Assembly (NCBI GenBank): GCA_905331295.1
Contig: CAJNYD010000035.1
Coordinates: forward strand, 310,001 to 374,000
DNA length: 64,000 nt
DNA from: Rotaria socialis
Lineage: Eukaryota
Reading direction: 5' to 3'
The translations under genes were made by a program, and so were the position numbers. The notes beneath the pieces are model-generated. The model was not told the origin of the DNA, made no database searches, and was given only the letters and a program-made list of their open reading frames with translations. This document shows positions 9,354-63,302 of this stretch, piece by piece (within the stretch, counting starts at the first letter, position 1; each line of letters starts with the position of its first letter).

Positions 9354-10276
9354 TTAATTCATTTTCTTTGCGAGCTCTTTACATTTCCATAAATCCCACC
9401 AAGGTGCATATGGCCATCGATGATGTTCCCAATGATAATCAAAATGATAGCAACATAAAAAACTAACTAATCGATTTGCACTAGCTGATCTTGATTTTTC
9501 CCATGGCATCGCTTCGTCATATTTACCGTCGACTAACTCTGGCCGATGTGGAGTGTAAGTACCAAAATAAAATAAACGTAATGAACTACATAATCCACAT
9601 ATTAACATGTAGACAATAATATTCAGCAATGGAACAGAAAATACTACTTGAAGAGTAGTGACCCATACGGTCATTTTGTATAGCTGTTGTTTAGTAGTGT
9701 ATCCAATTAGAAAATGAGTATACCAAGCAAAAAATCCTATACACCGACCATCGTGATAATCAGGATCTTCATTGGCAAGACCAGTATGCTTATGATGTAG
9801 CCAATGTTTTTCATACATAATCCGATAATCAAACCAAGCATACGCAGACAAACATACATGACCGATAACATCATTTAATTGTCGATACTAAAATTCGATA
9901 TATTAAAAGGAGTTAAATTAGAAATTTGACCGTCTTATTGAGATAATAATACGAGACTTTCTACTCAATGTTGTTAACCTATATTATCTATCAATTTACC
10001 CTACACATTATTACTTAGTTCACTCACACGATTGCAAATTGCTCCATGCATAGCATCATGGCCAGCAATAAACAGGCCGGTGTATAAAAATTCCAAAATC
10101 AAAAATGTTCCGATGATATCGTACCAACTTGTTTTTGTAAAATTAATTTGAAATAAAGCATGATACCAACATAGAATAAAAGAACTGAGAATAAATAAAG
10201 CAATTATTAAGCCCTTAAAGTAATTTTTTGGTGGACAATAAAGTAATTTATAATCGTCAGTACTTTCACTTATCAT
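9354..10276 (-). CDS. crtW: Beta-carotene ketolase (CrtW/BKT, membrane di-iron desaturase superfamily), 260 aa; exons 10276-10028 and 9887-9354
   Basis: A 140-nt phase-0 intron (GTGAGT...TTTTAG) joins the two ORFs. Three His boxes HDAMH, HWLHH, HWEHH plus family motifs LYTGLFI, DPDYH, RLFYFGTYxPH, SFLCCYHFDYHWEHHRWPYAPWW. Confidence 0.93.
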
Positions 10277-10978
10277 CGTAAGCCAATGCTAAATATTATG
10301 CAAGGTTTACCGACAACATCTTTATCTTATATTTACTCAACTACAGCCGAGAACATATTCATGCCGCCATGTTTTTTTTTTGTCGAAGATTTGCTCGCTT
10401 CTTACAGCCATTTTGTTAGTACTACTAGTAAATTCAGAGCAGCTTGGTCGAGTTCGATGAAATTTTCTCGAATTTCTGAAAATCGTAAATAGATATAAAA
10501 AAAACATAGATAAAGAAACTATTTGACAGATGCCACTCTGAAAAAAACAATTTTCATTAGAATTTCGATCAAAAACGTTATTTTTTTAAAATTCTAATCG
10601 CAAAGAATTCTGATCATGAATTCCAATTCCACGTGCATTTACGTGAACGTGAAGTAAAGAACGCACGAGACACATAGTACTTTAGAAAAAAAAATATCAC
10701 CCTCCTAATTCGCGTGCATTGCGGCTTAATTTCTAGTGATAGTAATTCAACGTAGTAACAAATAATGTTGTCACAATGAGAAAAATCGAATTGATAGTCG
10801 AATTTCCAAGTTTTGCGCAGTAATGTTAAAATACGAAGAATGTTTGTATCTGGCGCCATCTACAAGTGTTGTTATCTGATTCGATTATCTCAAACGACCG
10901 TCCATGAAGCAAGTTTCTTTATTTCTATTGAATGATTTCTTCTTGCATAAGTTTGTCTATCTGTCATCTGCTACGATT

Positions 10979-30830: not shown

Positions 30831-33800
30831 TTATTGTTTTTTCGTTATATAATTTATTTGAAGTCCATCAGGATAAATATATAGTGGTATTGATCGAACG
30901 CCTTTGTTAAGCTGTGGTTCTGTTGTTTTTATGAGAAGATATTCTTTTATTATTAATTTATATTTGTGTCTTTCTCTCAATCTGATTTGAAAGTTATGGT
31001 TATCAAACATGTGCCCGGTAGTAAGATAGTGTTTCACTATAGAAGATTTAGCTGTATTCTGTTGTGGCTGCTTTTCTTTTATTTCACAATTTTTTAATAG
31101 TGCGTCAATGTCTTCTTGGTTCATTATAATATTTGGCTTTGGAATTTACTGGTCTGTAATCTAGTAATCGGTCCTTTGCGTTCAATATTGGGTTTAAATA
31201 TGGATGGTTTTATTTTTGAGGTACGTTTTGATTTCTTAACTTTTTTCACACATAAATCGTTTTTTTGATCATTAATATGTTCATGTACACGTGTCTTAAG
31301 ATGTCTAAATGTTTTACCAATATATTTTATGCTACATTCTGGGCAAGTGGCTTCATAAACAACTCCTGATTGCATGTTTTCTGGAATTGGATCTTTCAAG
31401 GTAAAACTATCACCAACTCGTTCTTGAACATCATAGACAACTCTTATTTGTTTTAATGGATAATTCTTGGTAATAGTTGAGGTGATACGCTTTGTATAGA
31501 CTTGACTTAATGGTCCAAAATAAGGTATTCGAAGAACAACAGTATCAATAGTGAGTGCCGGTGGTGTTATAGGAGTAGTAGACTCATACATAAGATTAAG
31601 TTGACGCCTAATAATCGAATCCAGCTTCGAATTAGGGTATCCATTTCGAATTGCTAATGATCTTATTGATTTAAATTCACGATGTAGAACATTATATGAG
31701 GAACAAATCGTAATAGCTCTATACACCATCGTTGACAATGCGTTATACTTATAAATTTTTGGTACGAAGCTGCTCCATTTAGTAATAAGACCCGTGAATG
31801 TTGGTTTTCTATAAACTCGTGTTTGAAAACCTTCACCTGATTTGCGTTGTACCAGTACATCAAGAAATGGGAGTTTGTGTGTATATCGATCTTCTTCTTC
31901 ATAACTAAATTTAATACATGGATGATACTGATACAGAATATAAGAAATGCCCTTAATAGGCACTTTTGAGTCTACTAATACAAAAGTATCATCAACGTAG
32001 CGTTTCCAATAAATAATACCCATTTGATTAAAAGATGATAAATGTTTTCTCTCAAAATCTTGAAGAAAAATCTCAGCCAAAAGTGGAGTCAAAGGAGATC
32101 CCATTGGTACTCCATCTATTTGATCATATAATTCTCCATCAAAAAGAAAATGAGATTGACTTGTTGCTGAATCGAGTAAATCTTTTATATCTGATCGATT
32201 CATTGAAGGAGGTTTAATATTGCCATCACATAACTGTTTAAGAATTATGCCTATTGTCTCATCGAGTGGTACATTAGTATATAGATAGGGGTGTCACATT
32301 TAAATTTAAAAAAATTTATTAAATCGGGAAATAAATTTTCAAAAATTTAAATTTAAAATAAATTAAATTTTTTTTAAATGAAAAGTTAAATTTAAAATAA
32401 ATTTTAACTGAAAAAATTTTAATTTAATTAGATTTTAAATTTTGCATCATTTAAATTTAACTAAATTTAAATTAAATTGTTTGAAATTCAAATTAGTTGA
32501 ATTTTGAAAACTAATAGATAAAAATAGTTTTTGACTTGATTGCTACTATTTAAAGTCAAATTTGAGTGTGTTTCCTGTTTTCTAAAGTTAAAACTAGCCA
32601 TTCTTCTATGAATTGTGCTATTAAATATATTTTTATGAGTATCCCAGTCTTCTGAAGAAGAAAGATGACGGACCCTGCATAATCTGTAGAGAAATTTTGA
32701 CTATTATGAATAAATATTAACCTAAAATACTAGGTTTTCCTCTCATTTAGTATTTACTACTGTTAAAGTCACGTATTTCTCTCGTAGCAATCATGTGTAT
32801 CCATCCAAATAATTTATTAAATTTAAAATTTAAATTTAAAAAAATTATTAAATCAAGAAATAAATTTTCAAAAATTTAATTTAAATTAAATTTAAATTCT
32901 GAAAATTTAAATTTTATTCAAATTTAAATTTTTGTATCAGAAAAATTCAAATTTATTTTAAATTTAACTTGATAGAATTTAATTTAAAATTAAATTAACT
33001 TTTCACGAAGTTAAATTTAAATTAAATAAACTGTCAATTGACACCCCTATATATAGACTAGCAATATCAAAAGATACCATCTTATATTGAGACATAGGCT
33101 TAGGTAATGCCAGTAATTCTTTAACGAACGACAATGAATCACGGATCATATTCTTTTTTTTATGATGTTTGACAATATTTGTAACAGAGCTTTAGAAAGT
33201 CCATAGTTGAACGTCCCGATTGCTGAGAGCACTGGTCTAAGTGGAACATCCTTTTTATGTGTTTTTGGTAATCCGTAAAGACGTCCAGGAATAGAACCAG
33301 TAGGCTTTGCCATTACCCAAAATTGATCGGAAATGTGTCCTTCATCATGTAACCTATTCAACAACTTTGTTAATTTAGTTTCACGGGTAATTGTAAGATC
33401 ATCTGACAGACATTTAAATTTACTAGAATCATTAAGTATAACATGGATCTTTGATAAATACTCGCCTTTATTTAATAAAACAATTCCTCTGCCTTTATCG
33501 GGACGAATAACAATAATCGACTTGTCTTGTTTTAATTTTCCTAATATATTACGATATTTTTGTTGTTCAGCATTGATCCTATTTTGTATTTGTCCGAAAT
33601 GATAAGCATGAGAACGAAATGAATCAGTAATTGAACGTAGACTATTTGCCAATGTCAATTCTTTTGAAGTAATAACACGAACATCAGAATCAACAATTGT
33701 ATTTTTTTCCTTAAGTTCAGAAAACAGCTTCTTATGATGTTGAGAAATATCAGTAACTCGATGGAAAAAATTTTCAATATTACTAATAATGTTAATATCA

Positions 33801-34300
33801 TCAACCTTTCTAGGAATAAGACCGTAGTTTAAGCCATGCGCGAGACATTCAACTTCTTCATTTGATAATATACGGGAAGAGAGGTTCTTAACGACGTTAC
33901 CATCGACGGGATCAAATTTTCTATTAAGTTGTTCATGTCTACTCATCTTCTCTCTTAATTTGTTCTCCCTTTTATATAATACTGCACGTGAACGATCAAT
34001 AATATACTCCAAAACATGTTGAAATATAGTATCAGGTACACTATTTTTCAGTTCATCCAAAAACAAATAGTAATTTTTTTTCAGGATATTGAGGTATTTA
34101 TATTTTGAATTGATTTCAGCGTTCAGTAAACGTCTTTGACATTCCTTATAAGCTGACGAAAGTGAAAGCACCTTGTTCGCCGTTTTGAACCAAAGAAATT
34201 TCGGAATAACATCCTGAGATCGACAGTATTTGAGAAAATGTAGATCCATTAATAACGACTGAAAACGTTCATGAGCTCTTTTCGTATTATCATAAATCAT
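30831..34300 (-). mobile_element. Penelope-like retroelement (RT + GIY-YIG endonuclease), inactivated by frameshifts and a MITE insertion
   Basis: RPDKGRGIVLL, LYGLPKTHK-VPLRPVLS, MVSFDIASLY|TNVP, QIDGVPMGSPL, WKRYVDDTF, LPFLDV; GIY-YIG GVVYEATCPECSIKYIGKTFRHLKTRVHEH...EYLLIKTTEPQLN; frameshifts near 33155 (A run) and 31124. Confidence 0.93.
32286..33049. mobile_element. hAT-type MITE (764 bp) inserted in the RT coding region
   Basis: TIR TAGGGGTGTCA / TGACACCCCTA; 8-bp TSD TATATAGA at 32278-32285 and 33050-33057; subterminal arrays of AAATTTAAATTT. Confidence 0.92.
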
Positions 34301-34810
34301 TAAAAAATATTATGACTAAAATGATAATTTAAGTATCCACCGATATTTATATTCGATAATGCCATACTGAAAGCGGAAACGAAAACGAAAGAAATTAACC
34401 TCTCTAGCTTTAACTTATCCCAAAACTTACTTTTTCAGTAGTTTTCTGTGCGACAAAAATAATGCTATAATTGACAAAGACACATAAATGTCAAACAAAA
34501 AATCTTACTCCATAGGACATCATAAGCACAAATACTTTCTCAGTTATCAATCCGTACTGAAGCGACAATAAAATGGATAACGTCGAAACATCACTTTAAA
34601 CGTTCGAATCTAACCGACAGCAATGCGACCAACAACAGAAACACCATCTGCAACGCTACGCAAGAAGTGTTCATCATAACAATACGAACAACTCGTATAT
34701 CTATTCCCAAAATCGATAATACAATTCCTTCTAAACATTTTCAATCATATGATTTTTATTTTCTAGGTAACACACTACTCTTCAACTACAATCGAACAAC
34801 TAAAACCGAC

Positions 34811-37052: not shown

Positions 37053-39728
37053 TGATGTTTAAGCTTCAAAGATATTCGATAATGGAAGAATAGTCAAGAA
37101 AGAAAAAACAATTCAATACACGTGCATTCATCATCACTACCTCTCACGTTTGTTTGTTTTCTGTTGTCTGTATTCTGTTCTCTATATGCTATCGTTATCT
37201 TTCTCTCTCGTAAGCGTCCGAAAAAATTGTACTGAAATCACAAAAAAGATAGGATGTCACGAATAAATACAGCGAAATTTTAAAAAACAAAAGAAAAAAG
37301 ATAAAGTGATTAATATTACAATGAAGCTATTGACTTGTTTACTGAAGTAGCTAATTGTGTTTGCTTATTTGTTTGAATATCGTTTTGGCTTCAATCGATT
37401 GATCATTTCTACAAAAGAATAAAAGCCATTCATGACAGACAGATGCATTCATACATATGACAAAACCTACAATAATGATTTACNNNNNNNNNNNNNNNNN
37501 NNNNNNNNNNNNNNNNNNNNNNNNNNNNNNNNNNNNNNNNNNNNNNNNNNNNNNNNNNNNNNNNNNNNNNNNNNNNNNNNNNNCTATATAACTGGAATTC
37601 TCATAAGTTACATTAGCTGACAGATCGAGAGCTCCAAAAATCACTAATTTGACAATCACCAGAACGTTAGTAGCAAAATGATGATTTTCAGTCGGCTCTG
37701 CTGAGCTATAGAAAACTCGTGAAGAACTGAAATCTTTTGTGCATTTAGTATCATCTATGTTCTCACAATTGAGATAATTTTCGATACCTAAATGTATTCT
37801 TTTATTAGATATACCAGTGCATCAAATATCGCAAAAAGACTATTTTTGAAAAAAATATGGTAGTACTGAAGAATTTCTCTCCAGCTCACTCGATTGAACT
37901 GATTTTGTTTATCACAACTACACCAAGTTGATATACATCTACGGTGAAAATTTTATGACGAAATAACTTTCCTTTCGTGTGATGTGAATGTCTTTCTTAT
38001 ATAGGGCCAGTCGGTAGTGCCCTTAAAAAAATGTCGATATCTCACGAACTGAGTAATATTTCTCAAAGCGATTCCAATCAGAAGACGTAAAAATATTTTC
38101 TCTACCAGATGCATTAGTTCGAACGCACTTCATAAACTTTAATCGAGTAACTTCTGCAGAACTTCGATGAATTTACTCATTGGTAGAACATGTAAAAAGC
38201 AGCATTTTGTAATATTCATCAAATATTTCGTGTGCTTTTGAAACGCGGAATATTCTGCATCATCAGGATTGTAGAGCATGTGAGGCTCTATCAAATGTGA
38301 TGTGCCACCATCATCAGAAAACCGTCATTTTAAAGTAATTGCGAAAACAAAAATGCTGAAAATGGCACTTTTTTTGTATCGGTGCTTTTCATTCACAGGA
38401 TATTTCAGACATTTTCATGTTGACTACTGGCTCTATAATAAGCATGGTTCGATGTGCCTTTTCATGGGGAATCTGAATGTGGTTTTGGTTTTCATTTTTG
38501 ACTTTGCTTTAGTGTAAAAATCTGTAAAAAATTAGACGTAAAAGTTTTTTGAAAAAGTTTTTTTTGGTTTTTTCATGTTTCACTGGTTTTAGTATTTTGG
38601 ACATATCTCCGCCAGTTTAAAACTTTTTGGCGAATTTTTTTATCAAAGTTCTTAGAATTAAAAGCTCTACAGACCCTGAAAGTTTCAGGCGAATCGGTTT
38701 CCTGTTTTGTACGCGCGGTTGATTTCTGGTGGAATTACCCATATATATATAGAAGCTTAAAATGTCAAATAACTAAGCTATAATTCGTCAATATACTCAT
38801 AGATAATATTTTTTATTCTGAGATTAAAACCATTGTTTTAAATCATTTTTACTTTAGTATCTTCTTTCATAACAACTTCTGTTTATTTGGTTTTTGGTTT
38901 TAAGAAAAAAACTCATTCCTAATTTGTCTTCAATATCATACAGAGTAATTTGTCGATATGCTATCACAATATAGTTATGGCTTGTTAATAGTTATTAAAT
39001 AGCGAAGATAATGATGTTTCTCTCAGAATCAATTAAAACAATTTTTTTAAATTTTATATAACTATTACATTTTCTGATAGACATTAAGAAAACTATTGAA
39101 TTATTATCGTACTCTCCCCTCTTGTCTGTAGAACTTGTTACATAGTTTTAAATTTAGGACCAATTAGCTTGTGAAGATATCTGAATATTTTTCTATATGC
39201 TCTTCCATATTTTATCTCATCTTTTGACACATGATTGAGCATGATATTTACGAAATTCTTCATTTTTTTTTTTGATGATTGTGATCAGGCGCCCAACAGA
39301 AATGATCGGTGATTGTATAATTTTTATGACAAGAAAAAATATCGAAAATATCTATTGATGTTTCGAGTCGAATCATAGTTTTAATCATAAATAATCATTA
39401 TCGTGATTTATTTGTTTTCAAACAAAAACAATACAATAAATTGAGACCTAGTTGAAATTTTGACACCGTATTGTATAAGTATTCATTTATCTGATACACC
39501 AATGACATCTATCACGTGATGAAAATAGCATGTAAATCTCATTGGAAGAACATTATTGATGGGTAATTGAACACATCGAATATGCTTCTTCTCCTTGGAT
39601 CAGTTCAATAATAGATTAATCATATCATTCCAGATGAAACACAACGATGTAATCCAATAAATCGTATTCAATCGTCGAGACGGTTGACAAGTTTAGCAAC
39701 AACTGGCGATTCAGATACACTCTTTCCT

Positions 39729-41794: not shown

Positions 41795-43562
41795 TTCATC
41801 AAAGAAAAACAATCCAATTATGCAATATTAAGCGAACTCTTTTTATAACGATAGGTGTGCACTTATTATTCTCGCCTGCTAGCGATTAAATTTTTTTTAA
41901 ATAAACTTCATCATATTTAAATTATTATATCGAAAAGAGTTTTTCTTTTGTATTCATTCATAGTTTTCATGCAAATAACATGATTGTATCTTAGTATTCC
42001 AACAACATGAAGAGAGATCGCAAACCAACGTATAGATAAGAAAAATAGGAATAGCTAATGAAAATATGAAAATAGCTTTGCTATATTGAGAAGAAAGATA
42101 TAATTTAGGAGCCATCTGGAGATGTTATTTGTTGTAGCCCGTTCTTCTATATGTTTTATTTTATAGGTTTCTTTGTGTAGTAAGCATCGTTCATAGCTCT
42201 TCTGCATGGAACAGATGGTTATGAGTTTATTATTAGATTTCATTATTGATCTTGATAACTATTTTAATATCATAGTACTGATTTGAATTAAGATCTATAA
42301 TCAATATGAAAAGAATATTTGAGTCAATTTTTTATTTTTCAATGTCAACTAATCAGAATAAACAATTCGACAAATGATTTTTACTTCCAAATAAAATAAT
42401 CGTTGTTTGTTCATCATAAAAATACGTTCAGTTCTGGTTTAGCATTACAATACGTATTAAGTAACAAAAGAAAGGACACCTAGTGTTGTATATTGATTAA
42501 AAGATAAAGATAATTCTTCTGTTACATATATATTCTTTTTTGTACAAGCATACAATTCAATCTGATAAGAAATTCTTTAGCTTGACACCAATTTTTAATA
42601 AAATAATTGAAAAGCACGAATGGTTGGTCTGTCATATTATTTGTAAATGAATAATATATATATTCAAGAGATAGTATGTCTACTGAAAAAATATGTATGT
42701 ATTCTATCGAAGATAACTATTCATTAATTTAACTACATATGTATCTTTTTAATATAATGTATAGATGCTCAGTTGCATCATTGTATCTTATTTTACTGAT
42801 TAAAGGCGAAACTGTTCTATCCGAATGCACTGAAGCTGAGAAGTAAAAGTAGATACAAAGTATTTTGCGATACATAGGTAACAATATAGTATCATATCAG
42901 CAATCGAAAGATCAATTCTATTCAATGAGTAGCCTTTAAAATCATCGCCGTCAAATCGGCGAAGAAATGTTTTCGTTTCTATCCTACTACTCTATTGAAT
43001 AATGAATAAAAATTAAAATAAACTACAATACTTTGAATAAAAAACATTAAAACATTTCATTGAATATTATTTATTTATTTTTTAAATATTCTCTGTATCA
43101 ATTGCAATGAAATTTCAGTGATCATGTTTCATCTGTATTAGACGAAATAATTTTAGTTACTGCAGCCAAAGAATATTCTCTCCATCGAGGAAAATGAAGA
43201 AACGAAAAAACCTAAATGAGAAACTCGATGAACATAGATTCTTATCGCTTGATGATCAAAATTGAAACAAGTTCAAGTTTCAATTTTTCGTTTGTCTATT
43301 TCCATTAACTGAGAAGAGACAAACAAATAAACAAACAAACAAAGTTAATCATATAAACAAAAATATGGCTATTTCAATAGATTCATGCTCGAGTAATTGG
43401 TATTTTTCTTTTTTTTTATTATCGTGCAATAATAATATATTATTATAATTACAAGTACAATCATTATCGAATGCACGTGCATATACATAAACTTTTTGTT
43501 TACGAAAGCAAACTTTTAAGTAATGAATGCTATTATTATTTACAGAAAAAAAAGTTGTTTCT

Positions 43563-46088
43563 TTAAGAGTTAATATGTTCAACTATTGATTGATTTGGAG
43601 AATTTGTTAACAGATATTCATCACTAAGTGTACCATCAGAGAATAAATTCAAAGATCGACCCGATGTTTTATCAAATATCCAATGGGTTACTTGAAGACC
43701 ATCAAAATCATAAACAGGATTATTTTGATGATACTTAACCGGTTGTTTATTTTGAAACGCTTGAATAGGCCAACGTCGATCATCACCATAGATATGTCGT
43801 AATGCAATTCGTCGGATTCCAAGTTGTTTAGCAATCTGTAAATATTCTTCAATTTGATAAACATTGTCTTCGGTTAATACACATGAAAGTTTAATTGGAA
43901 CATTGGATGCTTCTCTTAAAATAGCTTTTAAATTTGGCATTTGCTTAACACCATGAAGTTTGTAATAAGTTGTAGGATGAAAAGAATTTACAGATATAGT
44001 ACATGAATCGTACATACGAAATGTTTTCATTTTTGGTATTGCTAATAAACCATTTGTATGTAATGATATATGAACATTTGGCAAATCTTGACGTAAACGG
44101 TTTACTAATTTCTCTTCATATTTATAAAGTTGAGGATCAGTTCTTGTACCTGTTAAAATTATTTTTGATGTTTGAGTTTTTTTCATCAAAGAAATAAATT
44201 CATCCAGATTTTCAAGTGTTTCTTTACGTAAATTATTTGGAGTTTCTAATAATTGATGTCCAATACAAAATGGACACTTTTGATTACATGATCCAGAAAA
44301 TAAAATATTGCCAAATTCAAATGGTTTGGATGTATCAACACGCGCTAATGATGAAAATGAACGACGAATTTGATTCAGCGACTGTTGACTTTGTTGTAAA
44401 GTAAGTGTCGAAGTTGTTAATGACGCTGGCGGTTTAGGCTCTGGTACATTTGTTGCTGCTGCTCGACGACGAACTGGTATTGTTGTATCTGGGATTGGTT
44501 GAAATGGACTTTGACCTTCTTTTAATGCTTGAACAGGATCTACTAGAAATTGTTCTCCACCTTGTAAATGTAAAATATGATTTTTCACGGCTGGTGAATA
44601 AAACAGAGCTACAACACCACCGAAACATTGTTTACCAAGACTTGTCATTTGTAAGCGTTGTTCGTCTTGATTGTATATCATTAAGCCATGATCTGTAACG
44701 AATTTAAATTCAGTAGGAAATAATTCTTGTAACGACGTCTTAAAACAATCTTCAAATGCAATAAGATCAATACCACCATAGTAGAAACTAACTGATGCCA
44801 TTTTAGCAATAGCTGCTTCTCGTGATAGATGATAAAGATCTTGAACTGGAATACGATTTAATTCGACACTACGAATATATTGTTGTAATTTCTTAGTAAC
44901 AGCACCTAAATTATACGATAATGTATGGTGACTGAATGATTGGGCACCAAGACCAATACCGATATAGGGTATAGCTTTTCTAACACGTTTATCCAAATAA
45001 TCAGAACATCCAGAATTACCTTGAACACGAGAAAATGTATTTTTTCCTGTTAATCCAATGTAATTAGATTGATTTAATAATTGTCTTGATTGACCTTCTT
45101 GACGATTAATTTGATCGAGTTTAACACGATCAGCTAAATGTGCCATCAATGTACCTTTATATCTCATACGATATAAAGTTATATGTTCAGGTTGAAGATC
45201 AATTGTATCTTGAACAGTTTTTAACCATGGGTCATCGGTACGTGATGCACGTAATGGAAATCCATACATTAAATCAATGTTAAAACTTTTAAAACCTGCA
45301 TTACGAATATTTGTCACTGCTTGATAGATATAATCTGTCGATGCATTAGCATCATCACGATTCATGTCTTTTGCTTGACGAAAATCTGTTGTTTGTAAAC
45401 CCATTGATATACGACGAATACCCATATCGTAATATGCTTTCATTTTTTCAGGTTCGGCTGCAGCTATCTTTGGTGTTGTCTCAATGGATACTTCAGTTAG
45501 ATTCCAATTAGTTTGAAATTTCGATTCAACATGTTTCATTAATTTTTGAATATGTTCTATTTTAGCCATAGATGGTGTTCCACCACCAATATCAAATCCG
45601 ACTAGTTTTTTTGCTTTTGTATTTAATAAATTTGCATACATATCTAATTCGGTGTATAGTGCAGAGAAATAATTTGTTTGTATATCAACATTTTTGCCTT
45701 GTTTTGGATTGACAACTGTATATTCACAAAATTGACAGCGTGTTTGACAAAAAGGCACATGAGCATAGAGCATCATCTCTGGTAATGAACCGTAAGCTCC
45801 ATAATAGGCTGCTTGAATATCTTGTTGATCTCGAAGTCTTTTTACTCGATAAGGTCGAATAGTAGTGTTGTGAGCGATTGGAAATGCTGTATTACATATA
45901 TGATGATGTCGCATTCCTGCACGGAAAACATCGTCAGCTGCGTACTGTTTTTGATCGTCTTCAGTTGGTTGTTGCCATGTAAATGAAGAGGATTCTGTAG
46001 ATATAGACAATGAATGAAACTTTAAAGTAGAGATTGCTGTTGATTTAAGGAACCGATGTGAAAGATGGTGACCCGCAGTTGATAACAT
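43563..46088 (-). CDS. Intronless tandem radical SAM protein: HemN/HemW-like domain fused to a second radical SAM domain, 841 aa
   Basis: Domain 1: YAHVPFCQTRCQFC, DIGGGTPS, RISMGLQT, NIDLMYGFP, YIGIGLGAQS. Pro/Thr/Gln-rich linker. Domain 2: NILFSGSCNQKCPFCIG, LTGTRTDP, SLHTNGLL, ISVNSF. Two CxxxCxxC motifs. Confidence 0.92.
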   Translation of the reverse strand: MLSTAGHHLSHRFLKSTAISTLKFHSLSISTESSSFTWQQPTEDDQKQYAADDVFRAGMRHHHICNTAFPIAHNTTIRPYRVKRLRDQQDIQAAYYGAYGSLPEMMLYAHVPFCQTRCQFCEYTVVNPKQGKNVDIQTNYFSALYTELDMYANLLNTKAKKLVGFDIGGGTPSMAKIEHIQKLMKHVESKFQTNWNLTEVSIETTPKIAAAEPEKMKAYYDMGIRRISMGLQTTDFRQAKDMNRDDANASTDYIYQAVTNIRNAGFKSFNIDLMYGFPLRASRTDDPWLKTVQDTIDLQPEHITLYRMRYKGTLMAHLADRVKLDQINRQEGQSRQLLNQSNYIGLTGKNTFSRVQGNSGCSDYLDKRVRKAIPYIGIGLGAQSFSHHTLSYNLGAVTKKLQQYIRSVELNRIPVQDLYHLSREAAIAKMASVSFYYGGIDLIAFEDCFKTSLQELFPTEFKFVTDHGLMIYNQDEQRLQMTSLGKQCFGGVVALFYSPAVKNHILHLQGGEQFLVDPVQALKEGQSPFQPIPDTTIPVRRRAAATNVPEPKPPASLTTSTLTLQQSQQSLNQIRRSFSSLARVDTSKPFEFGNILFSGSCNQKCPFCIGHQLLETPNNLRKETLENLDEFISLMKKTQTSKIILTGTRTDPQLYKYEEKLVNRLRQDLPNVHISLHTNGLLAIPKMKTFRMYDSCTISVNSFHPTTYYKLHGVKQMPNLKAILREASNVPIKLSCVLTEDNVYQIEEYLQIAKQLGIRRIALRHIYGDDRRWPIQAFQNKQPVKYHQNNPVYDFDGLQVTHWIFDKTSGRSLNLFSDGTLSDEYLLTNSPNQSIVEHINS

Positions 46089-47169
46089 TTTTCAAAATTC
46101 GCTGTGTATTGAGCTGTTGCTTAGATTTTTATACCATAGAAAGTGTAATGGTGACGTGGGTATATTACACTTGAATGCTATTGCGCAATTGTGACTCAAT
46201 ATTCTCCTTGTGAAAGAAATACGTATCCGATCTGATTTAATTTAGACTACTAGAAGAAAAAGCAGAATTATATAGCGATGCTTTTACGTTGTGCAATAAC
46301 TTTGCCAACGTGTTATTCTAGTGATTCACCGTTAGTCATGAACCATACGACAGTTATCATTGAGTCACATATAAAATCAATGCTTTTGCTTTTTTTTTGG
46401 GGTCGAAGAAATGTACTATGTTATATTTCATCGATTACTGTCAATGTCAATATTTTCGTGCGCTCTCGGATAAATCCCATGATATTCAAGGCCAAGTGCA
46501 AAAGTAATAGTATGTGAGTCAATGAATTTGATTCTCTCAAATATCTATCGTTAGAAATTCATACATCGCAGCGCTTGTCAGGATTCCAGCGGAAAAATTA
46601 TTTGCGAAGGACGTTCTCCTCGGGATTTATCAGGACACTGCGATGCATGGTTGGAGTTCTCAATTTTTAATAGATTTTTTATTTCATAATAATAATATTT
46701 TTTATCTGTGAACTTTGATCAATTTATCTATCTATAAATATTTCATTTGACTGCTAGCATGCAGATTATGTCAGTCGTACCATGATACTCAAGAGAAAAA
46801 GACGTTTTCGCTTTTCTCGGCTCTACTTTTTATTTCATTATGTACTTAATCATTGCTGATTTTTGAAGTAAAATTTGTTTCTCACTTTATTTAAAAAAAG
46901 ACGCACGACGCTTATCGCGATATATATTATATATACTAATGTCATACTGATTACATGGACGGAGAGTCACAACAATAAACTTTTTCTTCGCTTTTATTTT
47001 CATCAGTAAAACTAATTCACGCACAGATTAATCGATATAATACGATCGTTTGATCATATATTAAATCCTACATCTTTTTATACGACTACAAATATTGTCA
47101 GAGTTTTCCATTCATCATGTCAACATTTAATAGTTAACGAATGAGTCACATTTTCAGGAGAAATCGAAC

Positions 47170-50822: not shown

Positions 50823-53434
50823 TTAGTCGTTTTTGCTATTTAAACGTTTCTTTGGTTTTCTTTTCGAGAGGTTTTTAGCTAGTTTTGGCATACACTGTAT
50901 ATTGGTGGCACCATCTTGGGTGAGCGTTATGGTTGTCGTAAAATTACCAATATCTGACATTGATTGAGTACAATCAACATTAGTGACTTCTGGATAATAG
51001 AAAAACGTATAGAAAAACATTGATTTAAATAAGAACAAGATATACATACGGTCTGAGAAATTCATATATACATAATCTAATTCACGAATTCTTTCGTTTT
51101 TAAAGTAAATCTGGATGCTTACTTTTATATTATTCATAGATGGAAACGGAGCAGAAGGCATCGGGAAATAAACAATAGTACCATTAAGGGTAAACTTTTT
51201 AATTTTCTCAGACGAATCAGTTGTTGGCTCACAAATAATAAAAGATAAATTATCTTTAGTAATACGACCTTTGAAAACAATAAACACCATCGTCTGTCCA
51301 CACATTGGACCATACTGTGGACTCATATTTTCCACAGACACATCACCATAGCCTATAAGAATAAAATAAATTTTAATTGAATCTCTCTATGTTTTTTTTT
51401 GAAAAGAATAAATTTAACACTTACTTTCTTGCATAGTACAAGAAAATACCTCACTGTTTTTATCGCGCTGATATTCACCGTGTTGATCGCGATAAATTCG
51501 TGTGAAACGAAGTAATGATTGATCAAGTTTTTGCGATCGAATTACTTTCTTTGTAATAATATCATCTTGTTTACTTTTAATTAATTCCATCATGAAGCTA
51601 ATGAAAATAAATATACATGTATAAGTTCAAATGTTTATAACAAAAACTATATTTTATTAAATTTACCTTTTATAACCGTTTATAAAATCTTGATTAGTAA
51701 CTATAAAATACAATGTATTTACTTCTTCCTGTTTGAAAATTAATAATTGATCGTCGGGTTGCTTCATACGAGTTTTGTTATCAAGAGTATAGAGATGAGG
51801 TTTTTTCTCTATGTCCATAAGAGAAACTTCGATAATATTTGTATCTGACTCACGAGCCCATTCTTGACGTACCTAATATATATAATATTTATTTTTTTGA
51901 AGAATATATTTGAATCTTATTAATCAATGTCGTACATAAATTGCAGGATATTCTAGTTCAGCATTAGCCTCACATCGTAAGTAATGGGATGTAGTTTTAC
52001 TTTCATTTTGAGTTCTTGGACGAAATTTAGAACGTGGTTGTGCTTTTATATGAATTTGATACGGTTTTATTATTTCACTTTGAAGATCTAAACCATACAA
52101 TTAAAATCATGAGAATCAATCATTGATATAAAAATATATACATTGTTGTGTAAATATCAAATCATTTGTTATTCTAGATTCTATGTGAACATTGGTATCT
52201 AAAGGAAACATAAATATTTTTTAATTTTTCAATTGATTAATTTTTAATCTAAATATACTTGATGTACAATTAACCGGAGTTACAGTCAACGATTGGTTTG
52301 AATGATCTAAAAGAGTATATAATAAGTACGTAAATATATAAACTTTCTTGTCCTAAGCAAAGCGCCATGAATGTACCTCTTACTTCAACCGGCATTGACT
52401 CATTGAGATAGAATTGATCGTTTGCCTGTGATAACGTTGCTGTCAGAATGGCATCTGATATAAGAAAAATGAAAATGTATGATTTAAAAAATTCTCTAGT
52501 GGTACTTACTATCAATAGTTATTGGCTCAGTTAATGAATTATTTATTTGACTGAAATTATGGGATGACGTCAGCATATCTAACAAATTTATAATGAAAGA
52601 TGAATATAAAATGTAAAAATAAGAAAAAAATATTCTAATTACTTGGTGATAAATTATTTGAAACAGAACTCCCTACATGATGTTGACATATGTTCTGGAA
52701 GGATCCATTATATTGTACATTTGTAAGGCTATTAAATTTACGTGTAATATAACTCATTGGAATTTTTGGAGATACTGATTCAAGACGTTCTAATAAAGGG
52801 AGAAAAGTATTATGTGAGAAGTAAAAAATCGAATGCATACTTAAGTCATGAAATGTATGATTATAACTAAGAGTTTCTAATTTTATAAATATATGATTAT
52901 GTCAAGAATGGTTTTTTCCTAGATTGTTTAGATAAAAAATTCCTTCTTTCTCTTTCCTGTAGAAAAAAACATTGAAAAAAATGAATCGTCCCTTTTTATC
53001 CATGACGCATGAATAATAAAACGACAACACTCTGTACAGGATTCAAATATTTCACACTCGTGTAGAAACACCTCGTACAATCTGTGGATTCAATACTCTG
53101 TCGAACCGATTGCATAACTCATGCTAGTGACCTAGACTCTACTGTGATCTGTTCTAATGGAACTCATTAATATTTGCTGTTGATATGCTTCCTCAATTGT
53201 TGGCTTCTTAACTGATAAATTGGTAATTGAATCAAGCAGAACTAAAGTTCATACATGATCTCTCTCACGATTAATATGACCTATATTGTATCCGAGACAA
53301 TATATAAATATCGAATCTTTTTTGTTTTGATATAAATTTATCATCAGTTAGTATGTTCAAAAATTCATCGACAACTTTTAAGTCGTCATCATCATCGAAA
53401 ATACTATCTTTCGATAGAATAGATTGAAATTTCA
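50823..53434 (-). CDS. Divergent Rel-homology (NFAT/NF-kB-like) plus IPT/TIG domain transcription factor, paralogue 1 (5' end uncertain)
   Basis: Exons encode IKAQPRSKFRPRTQNESKTTSHYLRCE, YIEVSLMD..KKPHLYTLDN, FMMELIKSKQDDIITKKVIRSQKLDQSLLRFTR, IPT domain VENMSPQYGPMCGQTMVFIVFKGRI, basic NLS-like tail KRKPKKR. Confidence 0.7.
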
Positions 53435-55247: not shown

Positions 55248-57311
55248 TTAACATATTTCTTTAAATGGTTCGAGATGATTTACAGGTAATGAACATTGTC
55301 CAAGGTCAATAGCATTTTTAACAACAAGTGGTTGCCTTTTAGAGTATTTTTGCATTTTGACATGTAGTTCACGAATAATATCGTATGAAGTCATCAATGA
55401 ATGATGACCTACCTGGAGGGCATCTTTTGTTTCGAATTTCAAGCACTTTTTCATGTGAATATAATGCTTTGGGTAGTTCGCTCATCTGTTCATAAACCTT
55501 CCCAATATCACAGTAAGAAGCCGCCATATAAGGATCAATATCCGGAAGTGTTTTTTTTGAAAATCTCAAGTGCTTTTTTGTGATACAAAAGTGCTTTGAA
55601 TAGTTCACCCATCTCATTGTAAACCTTGCCAATATTACCGTCGGAAATGCTTACATGACAATCATTGGGACCAAGAGTTTTTTCAAACATTTGCAGTGAT
55701 TTTTCATGAGACGAAAGTGCTTCGACATAGACTCCTTTTTTCATGTACGCCATGCCAATTCCATTGTATGAACTAGCTAGGTAATGATGATTTGGAGAAA
55801 GAATTTGTCTACTGATTTCAAGTGACTTTTCATAAAAATGAATCGCCATATCATATTCTCCTTGCTTCTCTTTGATTACTCCAAGATGATGATTAAAATA
55901 CGCTTTCTCAAATTCATCATCAGACTGCTAAAGTAATACTTTGTGTAAATCTTCGGCCTTAGAAAATTGATTTATCATAATTAGCAATTGACCAAGGCCA
56001 TGCCCTCCTGTTAATTCCATCGTTCGTTGTCGTATTCGTTCCGTAAACTTGTGACGCTGAGAATCAGCATCGTTTGCCGATTTCAATTCTACTTGCCAGA
56101 GACGATCATTATCGTGTTCGATTTGTTTGATATGACCAATACGAAAAATACTACGGATTGAAACGAGAGTTTCACGTTCTGTCTGATGACAGCTAACATT
56201 TTTGATAGAAGCGAATCGAGTTGACGATAAAGATGGATCGATTGTCATGATGAATAGAACACCAATTAAATCAGAATTCAACATAGGATGACGAGCAAAA
56301 TTTAATGAAACATTGTGGTTTTTGCTGGTAGATAAAAAACTGTTAGAAGATAATAAGCCACATTTTGTTTTCACTAATTGATTGAAATCTGTTTTAACTA
56401 AACCTTGACCACGATAAACAGTAAATGAATCCGACTTGCGGTGACCAATTGATTGTTCAACGTGTAATCTGTCCATATCTTCATAAAGATCTCGAATGGA
56501 AAAGTCCATTTTCATAATAATATCAAATTCCATTGTGCGTAAAGCCCGATTGAGCATCGAATATAGAAAACATTCATATGCATATCACCATATTGGCTGA
56601 TGTTGATGATATTCTCGTTCTAATTTATTGATATTATCTAATTCAATAGAATTATTAGCGAATTTTTGACGGCAATAAACAAGAAAATCTTGTATTGATT
56701 GTTCATGAAATTCAATTGTTCATATAATTTCTTTTAATATTTGTGTGTAGATAAAAGATTGGTTTATTTGATCAAGATTTTGTTTTGATAATTCTTCATC
56801 TGCCGAAACAAAACCGATTGGAATAGTATTGTGATAATATTGTTGTGCACTTTGTTTCAATGCTTCACATATAGGTGAAATTTTCGTGAACACGCCTCTT
56901 ACTTTAGGCCACCGTTGAGTCATTGTTTATGTTCTGAAGCATTTCGACAAAAAACATAGGATGAATTTGAGTCATGTCATGAACAGTAGGTACAATGAGT
57001 TCACCAAGAGCATCAGATATAATTAAAAGAATATTTTCTTCTTCATTACTAGTAAGAAAACTAATGCAACGATCAGCATCAGAAAACGTGTTTATAGAAT
57101 TAACAACTTCTTACAATCGGCTGATGGTATTGCTAGTATCGACATTAATTACGCCATCGATGTTGCTATCCAGCCAAACGAGACTAAAGTTCTGTATGTG
57201 ACTGGGAAGCGAATTTTGAGACGTATTTAGTTGACTTGTATCAGGAGTTTTGAGCGTTTGTTTATCACCCCACAGGGTGAAAATGGAAGACAATTTTTTC
57301 AACTTTTGCAT
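55248..57311 (-). pseudogene. ADP-ribosyltransferase (ART) plus TPR-repeat protein pseudogene
   Basis: LVWLDSNID N-terminal domain, LDQINQSFIYTQILKEI, MLNRALR, VYRGQG, FLSTS, ERETL, then TPRs (LASSYNGIGMAY...AL..HEKSL); split over at least five ORFs by stops and frameshifts without splice signals. Confidence 0.88.
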
Positions 57312-58721
57312 ACTGTATTCGGTGTATATTATAAATAAAAATATTGAAGTGCTAGAAAAAAAAATATTTCAATGATAGTAAATATTTTAATTCACTTCCG
57401 TTATGAAAATTTTTTGATGAATCATTGAATTTGCTTATTCTCTTACTTGTGCGAGAGTGAGACATAGTTAATATTAATATAGAAAATTTGTTGGCAAAAA
57501 TCGAATACCGAATAAAAAACAACGGTCTTAGACTGTCATTGTTATTATTACTGTCAATAAAGGAATATATGCTTGTAAGAAAAAACAAAACGGTACTCAA
57601 TTCTTTGAGTTAATTTAGATTTTTCAAAGTTGGCACTTTCCTGTACTATGCTGTGCACATAACTCATGTGCGATAGAAATCGTTTTATCAATAAAAAGAA
57701 ATAAGAATTAAGCCGATTATAATAATATATTAATCATACAATAAAGCAAACTATAAGTGAGAATAGTGAAATATTTCAATGAAGATAAAACAACAAAATC
57801 AGTAAAATTCTTTTTGTTTTGAACTCATGAAAAAATTCATCGTCGTATATTCTAGCAGATGGATGAAAGAGATTATCCTAAGACCATGAATCAATATTTA
57901 TGTTTTCTTGAATTATATTTACATTAAAAAGTAGTATTTGAACATGTTGATTATGTTTTATAAATATCACGTTAAATTATGGAGATTCGCAAATCTACAT
58001 TGAGACGTGGTTTACTATTAGAAATCAATAATGAACGTATATTCTGTGCTGAATCGAAAGGAAACTATCTTAAAAACATAAAAGATTGACGCCCACAGAA
58101 AGCGCCACATGATTGTTACGACGAATTGGTCCTATGCTAGAGTCCATTGCAAGATGGGCAGAAGAGTCGTCCCCATTTTACTTGTCGATCATACACAGCA
58201 ACACACAAGGATGCAGATGGCATAGGAAAATAAATAATCTATTTTTAGGTAGCATAAATAAGAATTTAGACTATGATAGAGATCGATTGATTTCTCCTGA
58301 TATAAAAAAGGTATCAGTTACAAAATAACTCAACTGATAGAATTCCTATTATAAGATCAATAAATAATTTTCTATGGTCGATAAAATTTTAAAATATATG
58401 TGTAAGTTAGTTTCTATTGAAATGGTAGAACGAATAGCTCAGTAAGATGGCTACTTTGGATGTAATCTGTGGGATTAAATTCAGCTATTATATTACTATT
58501 TTGCTTATCAAAAACTGCCTAATAATACAAGACGAGAAACATAATAATAAAAATTATGGCAACCATGATATATCTACATGTTAATCACAGACAAAACTTG
58601 AGTTCTTTTTAAAATTTATACCACGTTTCTTATCTGTTCTTCTTCAAATTGCATAACAACGTATCAACTAGACAGATAGATACATTAATTAACAAAGTAG
58701 AAGTAAATCAACGCTTCGTAG

Positions 58722-60830: not shown

Positions 60831-63302
60831 TTAAGTGTGACGTAGACGTTTCGTCGACTTATGTGTCGATCCTTTTCGAGATAAAGTGGGACGTATATCT
60901 GTAGCCGCCAAGAACTCAAAGACATCGAAATTCTGTGACGTTGAGAATGGAACAGAGGTGATGCCTGGATCATTCAAATGAAGTGAAGCTAATTCTTCTA
61001 CATAAAAAAGTTTACTAAAAAAATGAATTTCACAAGGAAAAATATTACTACATACGATCTAATGATCCTTTATATAGATAAGGTGATTGATATAATTCTA
61101 ATCCTTTATAATAAATGATGATATCAACTGTCACAGTATCGCATTGTTGATGTGGAACAGCAGGCATTAGAAAATAAATAATATTTCCATTTTTAGTAAA
61201 ATTTTGTACTGAATATGTCCATCCACTTGAATATTGAACAATCTCAATCTTTAAATCATTTTTCAGAATACGACCTTTTAAAACAGCATAAACCATCTCT
61301 TGTCCGCACATTGGTCCATATCGTGGACCCATATGTTCAACTTCAACATCACCATAAGCTAGAAAATAGAAACAAATTCGTTGTTTAGTATTTTGTTTTT
61401 CTTGAAATCTATAATAATGTTTCTCATACCTTCACTCATAATACAAGAATATTCTGTACTGCCTTCATCGCATTGAAAATCTCCTTTTCCCACTTGAAAG
61501 TGACGTGTAAAGCGAAACATCGAATGTTCAAGTTGTCGCGTACGAATCAACTCTTTTGTTATATTATTATCTTGTTTACTTTTAATGATTTCAATCATAA
61601 AGCTATGAAAAAAAAAGAAATATGTACACTGAAAGTTTGAAAAATAGCAATGAATCAATAATTACGTTTTTTGTTTATTTAGGAAATCTTCCTTTGTTAC
61701 ACGAAAGAATAAAGCATTGGAACCCTTTGGTTTAAAGATTAATGTACTGTCTTCAAATATATTTGAGCTAGTTTTATTATCAATAGCGTATGGATGGACT
61801 TGTTTATCTATACTCATAAGTGCAACTTCAATAAGATTCACGTCGGATTGAAAATTCCATTCCGTGGGGATCTAGAAGGTTAGAAAAAAAGTCTTTATAA
61901 CACTTTTGAGATAAATTAATCAATGAAATACCGAAATTGTTGGGTATTCAGGCTTAACACCCTCTTCACATCGCACATAGTGTGCTGAATTTTTACTTTC
62001 ATTTTGTGTTCGTGGACGGTATTTCGAACGTGGTTCGCATTTAATTTCAATTTTCTTTGACACTGCACCATCAAATTGAAGAACTAAAAACATTGATTGA
62101 AATTTAAAGAAAACCATAGAAAATAATCACAAACAAAGTACTTACGTTGTTGTTGATATGCAAAATTATTGGGCATTTGTACAGTAGTACACGGTTCACA
62201 GCCATTTGGATCTAGAAAAAATATAATTATTTATTTATTATTTTGCCGTATGTTCGATTTAATCATACTTATTAAATAATCAACAGGCTTGACACTGCTT
62301 GGATGTCGACTATCGTCTATTAATAAATAAAGAAATTATATAATTTTTCAAAGATTAAATATAAAATTGACATACAGTTATTTCTTCGTGATCTTGCTGC
62401 TGTTTTAATTAAGCGCTCTTGTTGTTGAACAATAATATGTGCAGTAAATGAATCTGAAATAAGATCATGAAAGAAAAAAAAAAACTTTGAAAGCTAACGA
62501 ATGCTTAATATTAACTGCTTACTCGCAGTAGCATTAGGCTCTTCTGGTGCATAACCTTTGGTGGTATATGATGTTTGCGAATACACTGAAGTAAAATGCG
62601 CATAAAACTTAATAAAATAAACATACAGACAAACGTGAAAATATACCTGATTGTGGTTCACTGATATACGTTTGATCATTACTTTCTACGAAATTGCTCT
62701 GTGGTAACTGTTCTGTTTCATTTGATTCACTGGGTAAAAGGCTCAATAATGCTGACATTTCATTACTGTCAAGCGCATTATCAAAAAATGAGAATTCGCC
62801 AAAATCTATATAAAAAAAACAATTTTTCTATATCATATTTGATTATTATTTTATTTCGAGTTCTTTCTTTCGAATATAGGTAACATTTTAGTATAGGACA
62901 TCAACGGTCAAACTTGCCATTACGAAAACGAATCCAAAGAATTTCTTTTTAAAGTAGTGTCAAATAGAAACATAGGTATGATTCAGTCAAAGTTCTAATA
63001 TGAAACATTGATTTTCATATAATATCAAAATTCATTTCAAAACTCAGAATATCTCTCACTTTATATAGATTTCAGATCAGATTTTACCTGTATTTGATGA
63101 GCCAATTAGAGCATCGATATCGAGGTTGTCACTAATATCATTTATATCAATGGTGTCTCGCGTAAAATCTGATGTATTAGTTGACAACATGTTTGTATGT
63201 TCAAGTTTCTGGAGTAAACGAAGATGAATCAATTGATTAAACTATTTGTTTCTATATATAGTATACCTTATCTTGTTCATCATCATGCGCCATATCTAGC
63301 AT
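60831..63302 (-). CDS. Divergent Rel-homology plus IPT domain transcription factor, paralogue 2 (5' end uncertain)
   Basis: IKCEPRSKYRPRTQNESKNSAHYVRCEEG-KPEYPTI, LIEVALMSIDKQVHPYAIDN, FMIEIIKSKQDNNITKELIRTRQLEHSMFRFTR, VEHMGPRYGPMCGQEMVYAVLKGRI; same exon layout as paralogue 1; stop at 60831-60833. Confidence 0.75.

What the first reader, a model, noticed from the sequence alone, without database searches (positions are those of the whole stretch)
43563..46088. Intronless two-domain radical SAM fusion with a mitochondrial-type leader
Seen: one 2.5-kb exon in an intron-dense window, with two complete CxxxCxxC domains (HemN-like, then a shorter domain with an unusual TGTRTDP in place of GGEP) and an acid-free Ser/Arg/His-rich N-terminus. 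Known: HemN-like proteins include heme chaperones (HemW/RSAD1) and class C radical SAM methylases/cyclopropanases; animals have only a few radical SAM enzymes and I know none with this architecture. Inference: a foreign-derived two-step pathway fused into one polypeptide and retargeted to mitochondria, where Fe-S clusters and SAM are available. The substrate is unknown.
Basis: partly seen in the sequence, partly recalled or inferred. Interest (0 to 1): 0.85.

Follow-up and report, generated by a model that had tools for sequence, protein, structure and literature searches.

The report
Borrowed two-in-one NAD enzyme in rotifers
Bdelloid rotifers carry one intron-free gene that joins two uncharacterised iron-sulfur 'radical SAM' enzymes whose bacterial counterparts are neighbouring genes behind a predicted binding site of an NAD regulator; it was likely taken from an amoeba-like microbe, is predicted to enter mitochondria and be cut there into two enzymes, and likely performs an undescribed step that replenishes the vitamin-B3 cofactor NAD.

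Summary
In detail: one 841-aa ORF with two intact radical-SAM domains, syntenic across bdelloids and covered by single transcript-like contigs in two studies. It is neither RSAD1/HemW nor HemN. The N half keeps the two-SAM site of HemN-like class C enzymes; the C half has a MoaA/viperin fold. In bacteria the halves are adjacent genes (49 of 80 loci). 35 of 50 pair loci carry an NrtR-type palindrome that elsewhere marks nadC-nadA, pncA/pncB and nrtR. Each half is also fused or clustered with NAD-salvage enzymes on its own, including in phages. Fusion and mitochondrial leader are not rotifer inventions: they occur in protists, and bdelloids branch with Stygamoeba (98/98). The linker carries a conserved R-x-aromatic-S motif like the internal MPP sites of yeast Arg5,6, so the protein is likely a tandem precursor. 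Best reading: an unknown, quinolinate-independent NAD salvage or repair step; substrate untested. N occurs without C in 26 genomes, which weakens a strict two-step pathway. The scan earlier noted the bacterial N-NrtR fusion and orphan radical-SAM genes in NAD operons on other DNA; it had no note on this gene.

The parts
43563..46088 (-). Single-exon ORF, 841 aa, tandem radical-SAM precursor (N half + linker + C half)
45981..46088 (-). N-terminal leader, aa 1-36, mitochondrial-presequence-like (basic, acid-free to aa 31); predicted only from composition
   Evidence: absent from the bacterial-type rows P0055 and P0076 in alignment A1
44553..45980 (-). N half, aa 37-512: HemN-fold radical-SAM domain with the second-SAM residues of class C enzymes (Y108, R226, D272, T304, Y306, R309)
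45726..45749 (-). First CxxxCxxC (C114, C118, C121)
   Evidence: 100 of 100 rows
44322..44552 (-). Linker, aa 513-589; variable, basic and acid-poor before the second domain (internal presequence-like)
44349..44366 (-). RRSFSS, aa 575-580: predicted internal MPP site (Arg at -2, aromatic at +1; cut predicted between S577 and F578)
43596..44321 (-). C half, aa 590-831: MoaA/viperin-fold radical-SAM domain with basic residues K733, R760, R764 and no auxiliary cysteine cluster motif
44265..44288 (-). Second CxxxCxxC (C601, C605, C608)
   Evidence: 99 of 100 rows
44133..44153 (-). TGTRTDP, the family's TGxxTDP form of the GGEP motif
43403..46243 (-). Extent of the transcript-like contig in run X1 (X2: 43528-46224)
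   Evidence: RNA status is the tool's guess

Best explanation
The gene encodes two intact radical-SAM domains that descend from a bacterial gene pair lying behind a predicted NAD-regulator (NrtR) operator; the protein is predicted to be imported into mitochondria and likely cut by the processing peptidase MPP into two enzymes, which likely salvage or repair blocked forms of niacin or NAD so that they re-enter the NAD pool without quinolinate. Step by step. (1) Shown: architecture, synteny, bacterial adjacency, operator, fusions to NAD enzymes. (2) Inferred: import by the leader, internal cut at R576-S577|F578, cluster loading in the matrix and reduction by a 2Fe-2S ferredoxin (fused to N in 8 eukaryote-like proteins). 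(3) Inferred from retained residues: N binds two SAM and makes the SAM-methylene radical, which acts on a pyridine-ring compound; my first candidate is removal of a blocking group from N-methylated niacin (trigonelline or N1-methylnicotinamide), a guess at about 0.15. (4) Inferred from fold and basic residues: C binds a phosphorylated nucleotide (NMN/NaMN, NAD or an ADP-ribose derivative) and attacks its ribose; candidates are anomerised or cyclised NAD(H). The two enzymes probably act in parallel or loosely in series, not as an obligate pair. My odds: NAD link of the family 0.8, kept in eukaryotes 0.7, mitochondrial import 0.8, internal cleavage 0.65, salvage/repair rather than another NAD role 0.6.
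For: Pair: C directly after N in 49 of 80 genome loci, within 1.8-2.7 kb in 3. Operator: WWAGTGT-N7-ACACTWW (at most 1 mismatch) within 450 bp upstream of N in 35 of 50 pair loci; 66 sites in 36.5 kb upstream against 5 in 1.30 Mb of the rest. It fits the NrtR description, a 21-bp palindrome with a GT-N7-AC core (PMC2330246, passages). 34 exact sites in 10 genomes against 1 for the reversed control; 18 lie at the pair. Of the 13 other regions, 6 hold nadC-nadA, pncA-like or pncB-like genes and 3 hold Band 7 or ECF-transporter genes. nrtR is present in 5 of 5 genomes tested, with a 1-mismatch site before it in 2. nrtR lies divergently before the pair in L043, L057, L068, L126 and L156; NadD-like genes follow it in L068 and L126. 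N alone: fused to Nudix or NrtR in 120 of 120 listed relatives of L063 and in pnuC-nadR-pncA-prs-pncB-nadE operons. C alone: fused to a NadD-like domain (P0261), inside NAD-salvage polyproteins (P0360, P0385), beside NAMPT in 2 of 11 viral loci annotated. Independent of de novo synthesis: nadA in 36 of 50 carriers; the other 14 also show no nadC; 5 of 9 carriers against 81 of 151 genomes of the class have nadA. Cleavage: motif in 26 of 26 bdelloid-like linkers, conservation 0.97 against 0.66 for the preceding linker; R-x-[FYW] in the last 50 linker residues of 12 of 21 dereplicated fusions against 3.6 expected, and with a following S/A/T/C 11 against 1.0; yeast Arg5,6 sites are RSY and RGY (PMC8734313, passages). 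Chlorarachniophytes encode N and C separately, each C with its own basic acid-free N-terminus.
Against: No substrate was tested; all functional evidence is gene context from bacteria and phages, none from rotifers. 15 of 50 pair loci and 24 of 26 N-only loci lack the palindrome. The Leptospira/Myxococcota group shows no NAD context and has a CoA-disulfide-reductase-like gene upstream instead (13 of 80 loci). 4 of 13 other operator regions have no NAD gene, and at 1 mismatch genome-wide counts equal the reversed control. Context can mislead in this family: hemW sits beside rdgB yet binds heme. 9 of 21 fusions lack R-x-aromatic, mostly short linkers such as the Physarum type, so cleavage is not universal; the 21 rows are not independent, and my first motif was written after seeing the alignment. 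The leader's hydrophobic moment is modest (0.24-0.33) and no targeting predictor was run. N-demethylation is not a known class C reaction (own knowledge).
Confidence: 0.5

Rival explanations
1. The pair, with the C paralogue and PLP-type enzyme found beside it, is part of an unknown de novo route to nicotinate or NaMN that bypasses quinolinate and oxygen.
For: Co-regulated with nadC-nadA; kept in 14 genomes with neither nadA nor nadC; the operon N, C-paralogue, PLP-like, C in L008/L133 looks like a pathway.
Against: No avoidance of nadA (5 of 9 against 81 of 151). N lacks C in 26 of 26 N-only genomes. The PLP-like gene was found only in L008/L133, which are identical copies.
Confidence: 0.15
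2. The enzymes consume NAD or ADP-ribose to make a modified nucleotide (a viperin-like defence or counter-defence product, or a new cofactor) rather than restoring NAD.
For: C's nearest solved relatives by profile are viperin-like enzymes (E 3e-15); C relatives are common in viruses and fused to Nudix and HAD domains; NrtR is released by ADP-ribose (PMC2330246, passages).
Against: C lacks the viperin NYH and KINF motifs and scores 29.5 bits against a cut-off of 180. None of the operon neighbours scanned was a recognisable defence partner recurring across loci. Its usual company is salvage enzymes.
Confidence: 0.15
3. The NAD role is bacterial only; in eukaryotes the protein stays a two-domain enzyme or has drifted to another mitochondrial job, such as a C-methylation.
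For: Short linkers without the motif in P0030, P0031, P0038, P0046 and P0063; eukaryotic sequences sit on a long branch (0.43); homocysteine methyltransferase genes precede N in L030 and L142, which suits SAH-producing methylation.
Against: Eukaryotic halves keep 40-50% identity and every tested active-site residue of the bacterial proteins; both halves form one eukaryotic clade, so they travelled together.
Confidence: 0.12
4. The N half is a heme chaperone or heme enzyme (HemW/RSAD1, HemN, ChuW) and the fusion serves tetrapyrrole metabolism.
For: HemN fold (TM 0.68); database names read 'oxygen-independent coproporphyrinogen III oxidase'.
Against: Below every curated cut-off (HemN 144/325, HemW 125/205, HutW 125/400). 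HNxxYW absent in 121 of 121 proteins. No CX3CX2CX2C. No heme gene among the neighbours scanned.
Confidence: 0.06

Closest known systems
HemN-like class C radical-SAM enzymes (HemN 1OLT, NocN/NosN 9P2U, ChuW, C10P)
   Same: Fold, GGGTP loop and the NocN second-SAM residues Y34, R153, D196, S225 and R230, matched by Y108, R226, D272, T304 and R309.
   Different: Own family (40-50% to bacterial relatives, 22-30% to HemN/HemW-type hits); invariant Asp at the NocN Tyr96 position; NAD regulon context; eukaryotic members with a leader.
MoaA, viperin and BlsE (nucleotide-acting radical-SAM enzymes)
   Same: C-half fold: Z 19.9 MoaA, 18.8 viperin, 17.2 BlsE (rmsd 2.7-3.5); beta-1 Asn and beta-5 Lys align with viperin.
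   Different: TGxxTDP for GGEP; no second cluster motif as in MoaA; viperin NYH/KINF motifs absent; GDGT-MAS ties at Z 19.4, so the fold alone does not fix the substrate.
Mitochondrial tandem precursors cut internally by MPP (yeast Arg5,6, Atp25; S. pombe Rsm22-Cox11)
   Same: Leader plus two enzymes from a bacterial operon, with an R-2/aromatic site at the junction (PMC8734313, passages).
   Different: Two Fe-S radical enzymes, in an animal and protists; cleavage here is predicted only.
NrtR regulons of NAD metabolism (Rodionov et al. 2008, PMC2330246)
   Same: 21-bp GT-N7-AC palindrome, shared with nadC-nadA, pncA/pncB and nrtR; nrtR divergent or fused.
   Different: That paper has no occurrence of 'radical SAM', 'hemN' or 'coproporphyrinogen'; the pair would be an unlisted member.
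STM4012/STM4011 pair of Salmonella
   Same: Also a HemN-like gene followed by a small radical-SAM gene; best NCBIfam hit of N.
   Different: 167 bits against a cut-off of 380; C is unrelated to STM4011 (probability 4.8%); different neighbours.

Membership tests
HemW/RSAD1 heme chaperones | CXHNX2YW motif (PMC13495026, passages) | tested here: not met
   HNxxYW in 0 of 121 proteins P0001-P0121
HemW/RSAD1 heme chaperones | TIGR00539 score over 205.4 bits | tested here: not met
   125.2 bits
HemN (coproporphyrinogen dehydrogenase) | CX3CX2CX2C motif and TIGR00538 over 324.95 bits | tested here: not met
   CQTRCQFCEY, no fourth Cys; 144 bits
HemN-like superfamily branch | HemN fold with C-terminal domain | tested here: met
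   model pLDDT 93.9, Foldseek 1OLT E 1.4e-24; HemN_C in bacterial relatives
Class C radical-SAM methylases | Second-SAM binding residues | tested here: met
   Y108, R226, D272, T304, R309 in 100 of 100 rows, mapped by hand on the NocN alignment; Tyr96 is replaced by Asp
Class C radical-SAM methylases | Transfers a SAM-derived carbon to an sp2 carbon, forming SAH | not testable with these tools
   needs an assay with labelled SAM
Viperin | NF038283 over 180 bits; NYH (beta-1) and KINF (beta-2) motifs | tested here: not met
   29.5 bits; only the Asn is kept; the roles of these residues are recalled
MoaA | TIGR02666 over 284 bits and a C-terminal cluster motif | tested here: not met
   45 bits; no conserved extra cysteines in A2
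STM4012/STM4011 | NF006067 over 380 bits and a STM4011 partner | tested here: not met
NrtR regulon (bacterial homologues) | 21-bp GT-N7-AC palindrome upstream, shared with NAD genes, nrtR in the genome | tested here: met
NrtR regulon (bacterial homologues) | NrtR binds the site and ADP-ribose releases it | not testable with these tools
   needs a gel shift
Mitochondrial tandem precursors | N-terminal presequence | tested here: inconclusive
   composition fits, amphipathicity modest, no predictor available
Mitochondrial tandem precursors | R-2/aromatic site at the junction | tested here: met
   26 of 26 bdelloid-like linkers; 12 of 21 dereplicated fusions against 3.6 expected
Mitochondrial tandem precursors | Cleavage by MPP after import | not testable with these tools
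   needs an import assay or N-terminomics

The most novel reading that the evidence does not exclude
An animal makes or recovers vitamin B3 in its mitochondria by radical chemistry unknown in any organism: a quinolinate- and oxygen-independent route into NAD, run by two radical-SAM enzymes delivered as one precursor, taken from an amoebozoan and shared with bacteria, phages and protists.
Probability: 0.25. Interest if true: 0.92.

Novelty: new variant of a known kind. Interest (0 to 1): 0.74.

Why it matters
NAD metabolism is treated as fully mapped, and no radical-SAM step is listed in the NrtR regulon paper. Two orphan radical-SAM families that share an operator with nadC-nadA and pncA/pncB mark a missing reaction, and a short panel of substrates makes it testable. 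The rotifer gene shows that this reaction reached mitochondria of several protist groups and then an animal, probably by eukaryote-to-animal transfer. If the internal cut is real, it is an animal case of a bacterial operon rebuilt as a mitochondrial tandem precursor.

Tried and rejected
Contamination or assembly artefact: rejected by synteny, host-like GC3 and spanning contigs. RSAD1/HemW, HemN, MoaA, viperin, STM4011/4012: rejected (membership table). Fusion invented in rotifers: rejected. Replacement of NadA: rejected. Obligate N-C pathway: weakened, 0 of 26 N-only genomes have a full C (best E 4e-15, partial); C in 1 of 401 genomes of that phylum; incomplete genomes limit these absences. 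The GT-N7-AC scan found no good site in the 17 upstream windows where nrtR is adjacent or fused; those lineages may use another motif, or my windows were off. No close N in phages or viral contigs (under 30% identity). No whole genome is held for the window, so a separate rotifer RSAD1, ferredoxin and NAD genes were not checked. No complex was predicted, since binding is not claimed. The atlas search for the N half did not complete. The first IQ-TREE run did not finish; the large trees are FastTree, the 42-row tree is IQ-TREE; no constrained-clade test was run. In the tail control 14 of 18 proteins could be parsed (0 motifs in 904 aa). Wastewater runs with small shares are not used as habitat evidence. 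Paper searches listed nothing on this protein or pair; the library lacks most subscription journals, only 40 of 293 and 12 of 25 hits were listed, and I read no supplements (bdelloid HGT tables and RegPrecise lists may name the gene).

Full report
1. Observation. The ORF at 43563-46088 (minus strand) gives 841 aa without a stop. It holds CQTRCQFC at aa 114, CNQKCPFC at aa 601 and TGTRTDP at aa 646. The first 31 residues have no acid. Its cluster mate in the protein collection is named Rotaria socialis. Full-length copies occur in R. magnacalcarata (96%), R. sordida (88%), Adineta steineri, A. ricciae and A. vaga (85%), and the linker plus C half in Didymodactylos. No other named animal appears among the 120 rows listed in either call. 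The gene is host-integrated (GC3 and synteny). Single contigs from runs X1 and X2, of two studies, cover the ORF with UTR-like ends and no joint; RNA status there is the tool's guess.

2. The two domains. N (aa 37-512) folds like HemN (pLDDT 93.9, TM 0.68) but misses every curated cut-off. It lacks the HemW motif (0 of 121; motif from PMC13495026, passages) and the fourth cysteine of HemN. Residues that bind the second SAM in NocN (PMC12871812, passages) map to Y108, R226, D272, T304 and R309, each invariant in 100 rows. HemN-like enzymes share a two-SAM methylene-radical start (PMC10114718, abstract to first mechanism section read), so N is likely catalytic. C (aa 590-831, pLDDT 93.6) matches MoaA, GDGT-MAS, viperin and BlsE at Z 17-20; by profile the best solved relatives are viperin-like enzymes. 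It keeps K733, R760 and R764, which suit a phosphorylated substrate (inference), but fails viperin and MoaA membership.

3. Bacterial context. Of 358 genome stretches with a relative, 80 were kept. C follows N directly in 49, lies within 1.8-2.7 kb in 3 and is missing in 28, 3 of them cut by a contig end; none is fused. Two unnamed fusions group with bacteria (P0055, P0076). A palindrome WWAGTGT-N7-ACACTWW lies upstream of N in 35 of 50 scorable pair loci, mostly as tandem copies, and in 2 of 26 N-only loci, both contig-cut. It fits the NrtR operator (PMC2330246, passages). Ten genomes hold 34 exact sites against 1 control match. Eighteen are at the pair. Of the 13 other regions, 2 precede nadC-nadA, 4 precede pncA-like or pncB-like genes, 3 precede Band 7 or ECF-transporter genes and 4 show no NAD gene. 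nrtR is in 5 of 5 genomes tested, with a near-site before it in 2. In a second clade nrtR lies divergently before the pair (5 loci). In a third, N is fused to Nudix or NrtR (120 of 120 rows) inside salvage operons. Relatives of C are fused to a NadD-like domain, sit in 2,900-4,000-aa NAD-salvage polyproteins and lie beside NAMPT in 2 of 11 viral loci annotated. Against: the Leptospira/Myxococcota group lacks the operator and has a CoA-disulfide-reductase-like gene upstream (13 loci), which may be an electron donor but shows no NAD link.

4. What kind of NAD step. Carriers have nadA at the background rate (36 of 50; 5 of 9 against 81 of 151 in one class), and the 14 without nadA also show no nadC. 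The product therefore need not pass through quinolinate, and the pair does not replace de novo synthesis. N-only genomes have no C, and no close N was found in viruses. Each enzyme thus has its own use, as salvage or repair enzymes do. The named substrates are my guesses from chemistry and come from no call.

5. History. Both halves give one eukaryotic clade (N 100/100; C 97 SH-like). Named members are Amoebozoa (Stygamoeba, Physarum, Clastostelium, Ceratiomyxa, Thecamoeba), chlorarachniophytes and a diatom. Bdelloids group with two unnamed fusions (99/98) and Stygamoeba (98/98) (42 chosen rows, midpoint root). One of those fusions is an intronless gene with its own leader on a GC-rich contig with an Atg4-type peptidase. 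Transfer of the ready-made fusion from an amoeba-like eukaryote is the simplest reading; inheritance with loss in other animals is not excluded. Eight of the 120 rows fuse N to a 2Fe-2S ferredoxin (two confirmed), which fits a matrix enzyme that needs electrons.

6. The linker. All 26 bdelloid-like linkers carry R-x-[FY]-S-[ST] 14-15 residues before C; the five motif columns are 0.97 conserved against 0.66 before them (25 rows). I first wrote the motif after seeing alignment A1, then retested with the published rule, Arg at -2 and an aromatic at +1 (PMC8734313, passages): 12 of 21 dereplicated fusions against 3.6 expected from shuffles. The rows are related; the motif occurs in four separate groups of the C tree and is missing from most short linkers. 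Where N and C are separate genes, C has its own basic acid-free N-terminus (P0133, P0150). The linker therefore looks like the second gene's presequence kept as a cut site.

7. Prior art. Ten paper searches listed nothing on this protein or pair. The scan's own notes held nothing by sequence or for the rotifer gene. They did hold the bacterial N-NrtR fusion and other orphan radical-SAM genes in NAD operons; I had reached the NAD reading before that call and do not count those notes as support.

8. Verdict. A real, conserved and likely expressed gene. It is new as an architecture and as two enzyme families; the known kinds it resembles are class C and viperin/MoaA-fold radical enzymes and MPP-cut tandem precursors. 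NAD link strong by context, chemistry open. Interest 0.74.

Noticed in passing
window 9354-10288 (minus): Fatty-acid-desaturase-family gene whose best NCBIfam match is beta-carotene ketolase CrtW (154 bits, cut-off 350); a likely second foreign gene.
   Followed up: partly
window 30834-34309 (minus): Reverse transcriptase plus GIY-YIG, Penelope-like retroelement, split over several ORFs.
   Followed up: no
window 55372-57368 (minus): ART-like ADP-ribosyltransferase with TPR repeats, an NAD-consuming type, syntenic with the radical-SAM gene in L082/L084; probably chance, as the family is large in bdelloids (recalled).
   Followed up: partly
window 50826-52100 and 61051-61874 (minus): Two related DBB/IPT-like genes; both match the single upstream gene of L082, suggesting a local duplication.
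   Followed up: no
window 8682-9221 (plus): Single-exon 179-aa membrane-like ORF without a Pfam match.
   Followed up: no
window about 37480-37600: Run of N (assembly gap) seen in the six-frame translation.
   Followed up: no
L008:8650-12658, L133, L135, L141, viral L176: A distant paralogue of C (291 aa) and a PLP-type protein (313 aa) sit between N and C; viral locus L176 holds three paralogues of C.
   Followed up: partly
P0360, P0385, P0329, P0332, P0376: Giant proteins of 770-4,000 aa that string together NAD-salvage enzymes, or a radical-SAM, Nudix-like and HAD module.
   Followed up: partly
L233, L234, L235, L237, L240: Band 7/SPFH genes recur behind the same operator, beside pncA-like and pncB-like genes; possibly the nrtX of PMC2330246 (identity recalled, not tested).
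   Followed up: partly
L242, L243: A variant of the palindrome lies near a PLP-enzyme and methyltransferase pair in two Vulcanimicrobiota-type genomes.
   Followed up: no
L093:2-2430: A eukaryote-like contig has N and C in different reading frames with overlap; assembly error or real split not examined.
   Followed up: no
L045:3521-4045: Tpt1/KptA RNA 2'-phosphotransferase, an NAD-consuming enzyme, lies divergently before an N-C pair.
   Followed up: no
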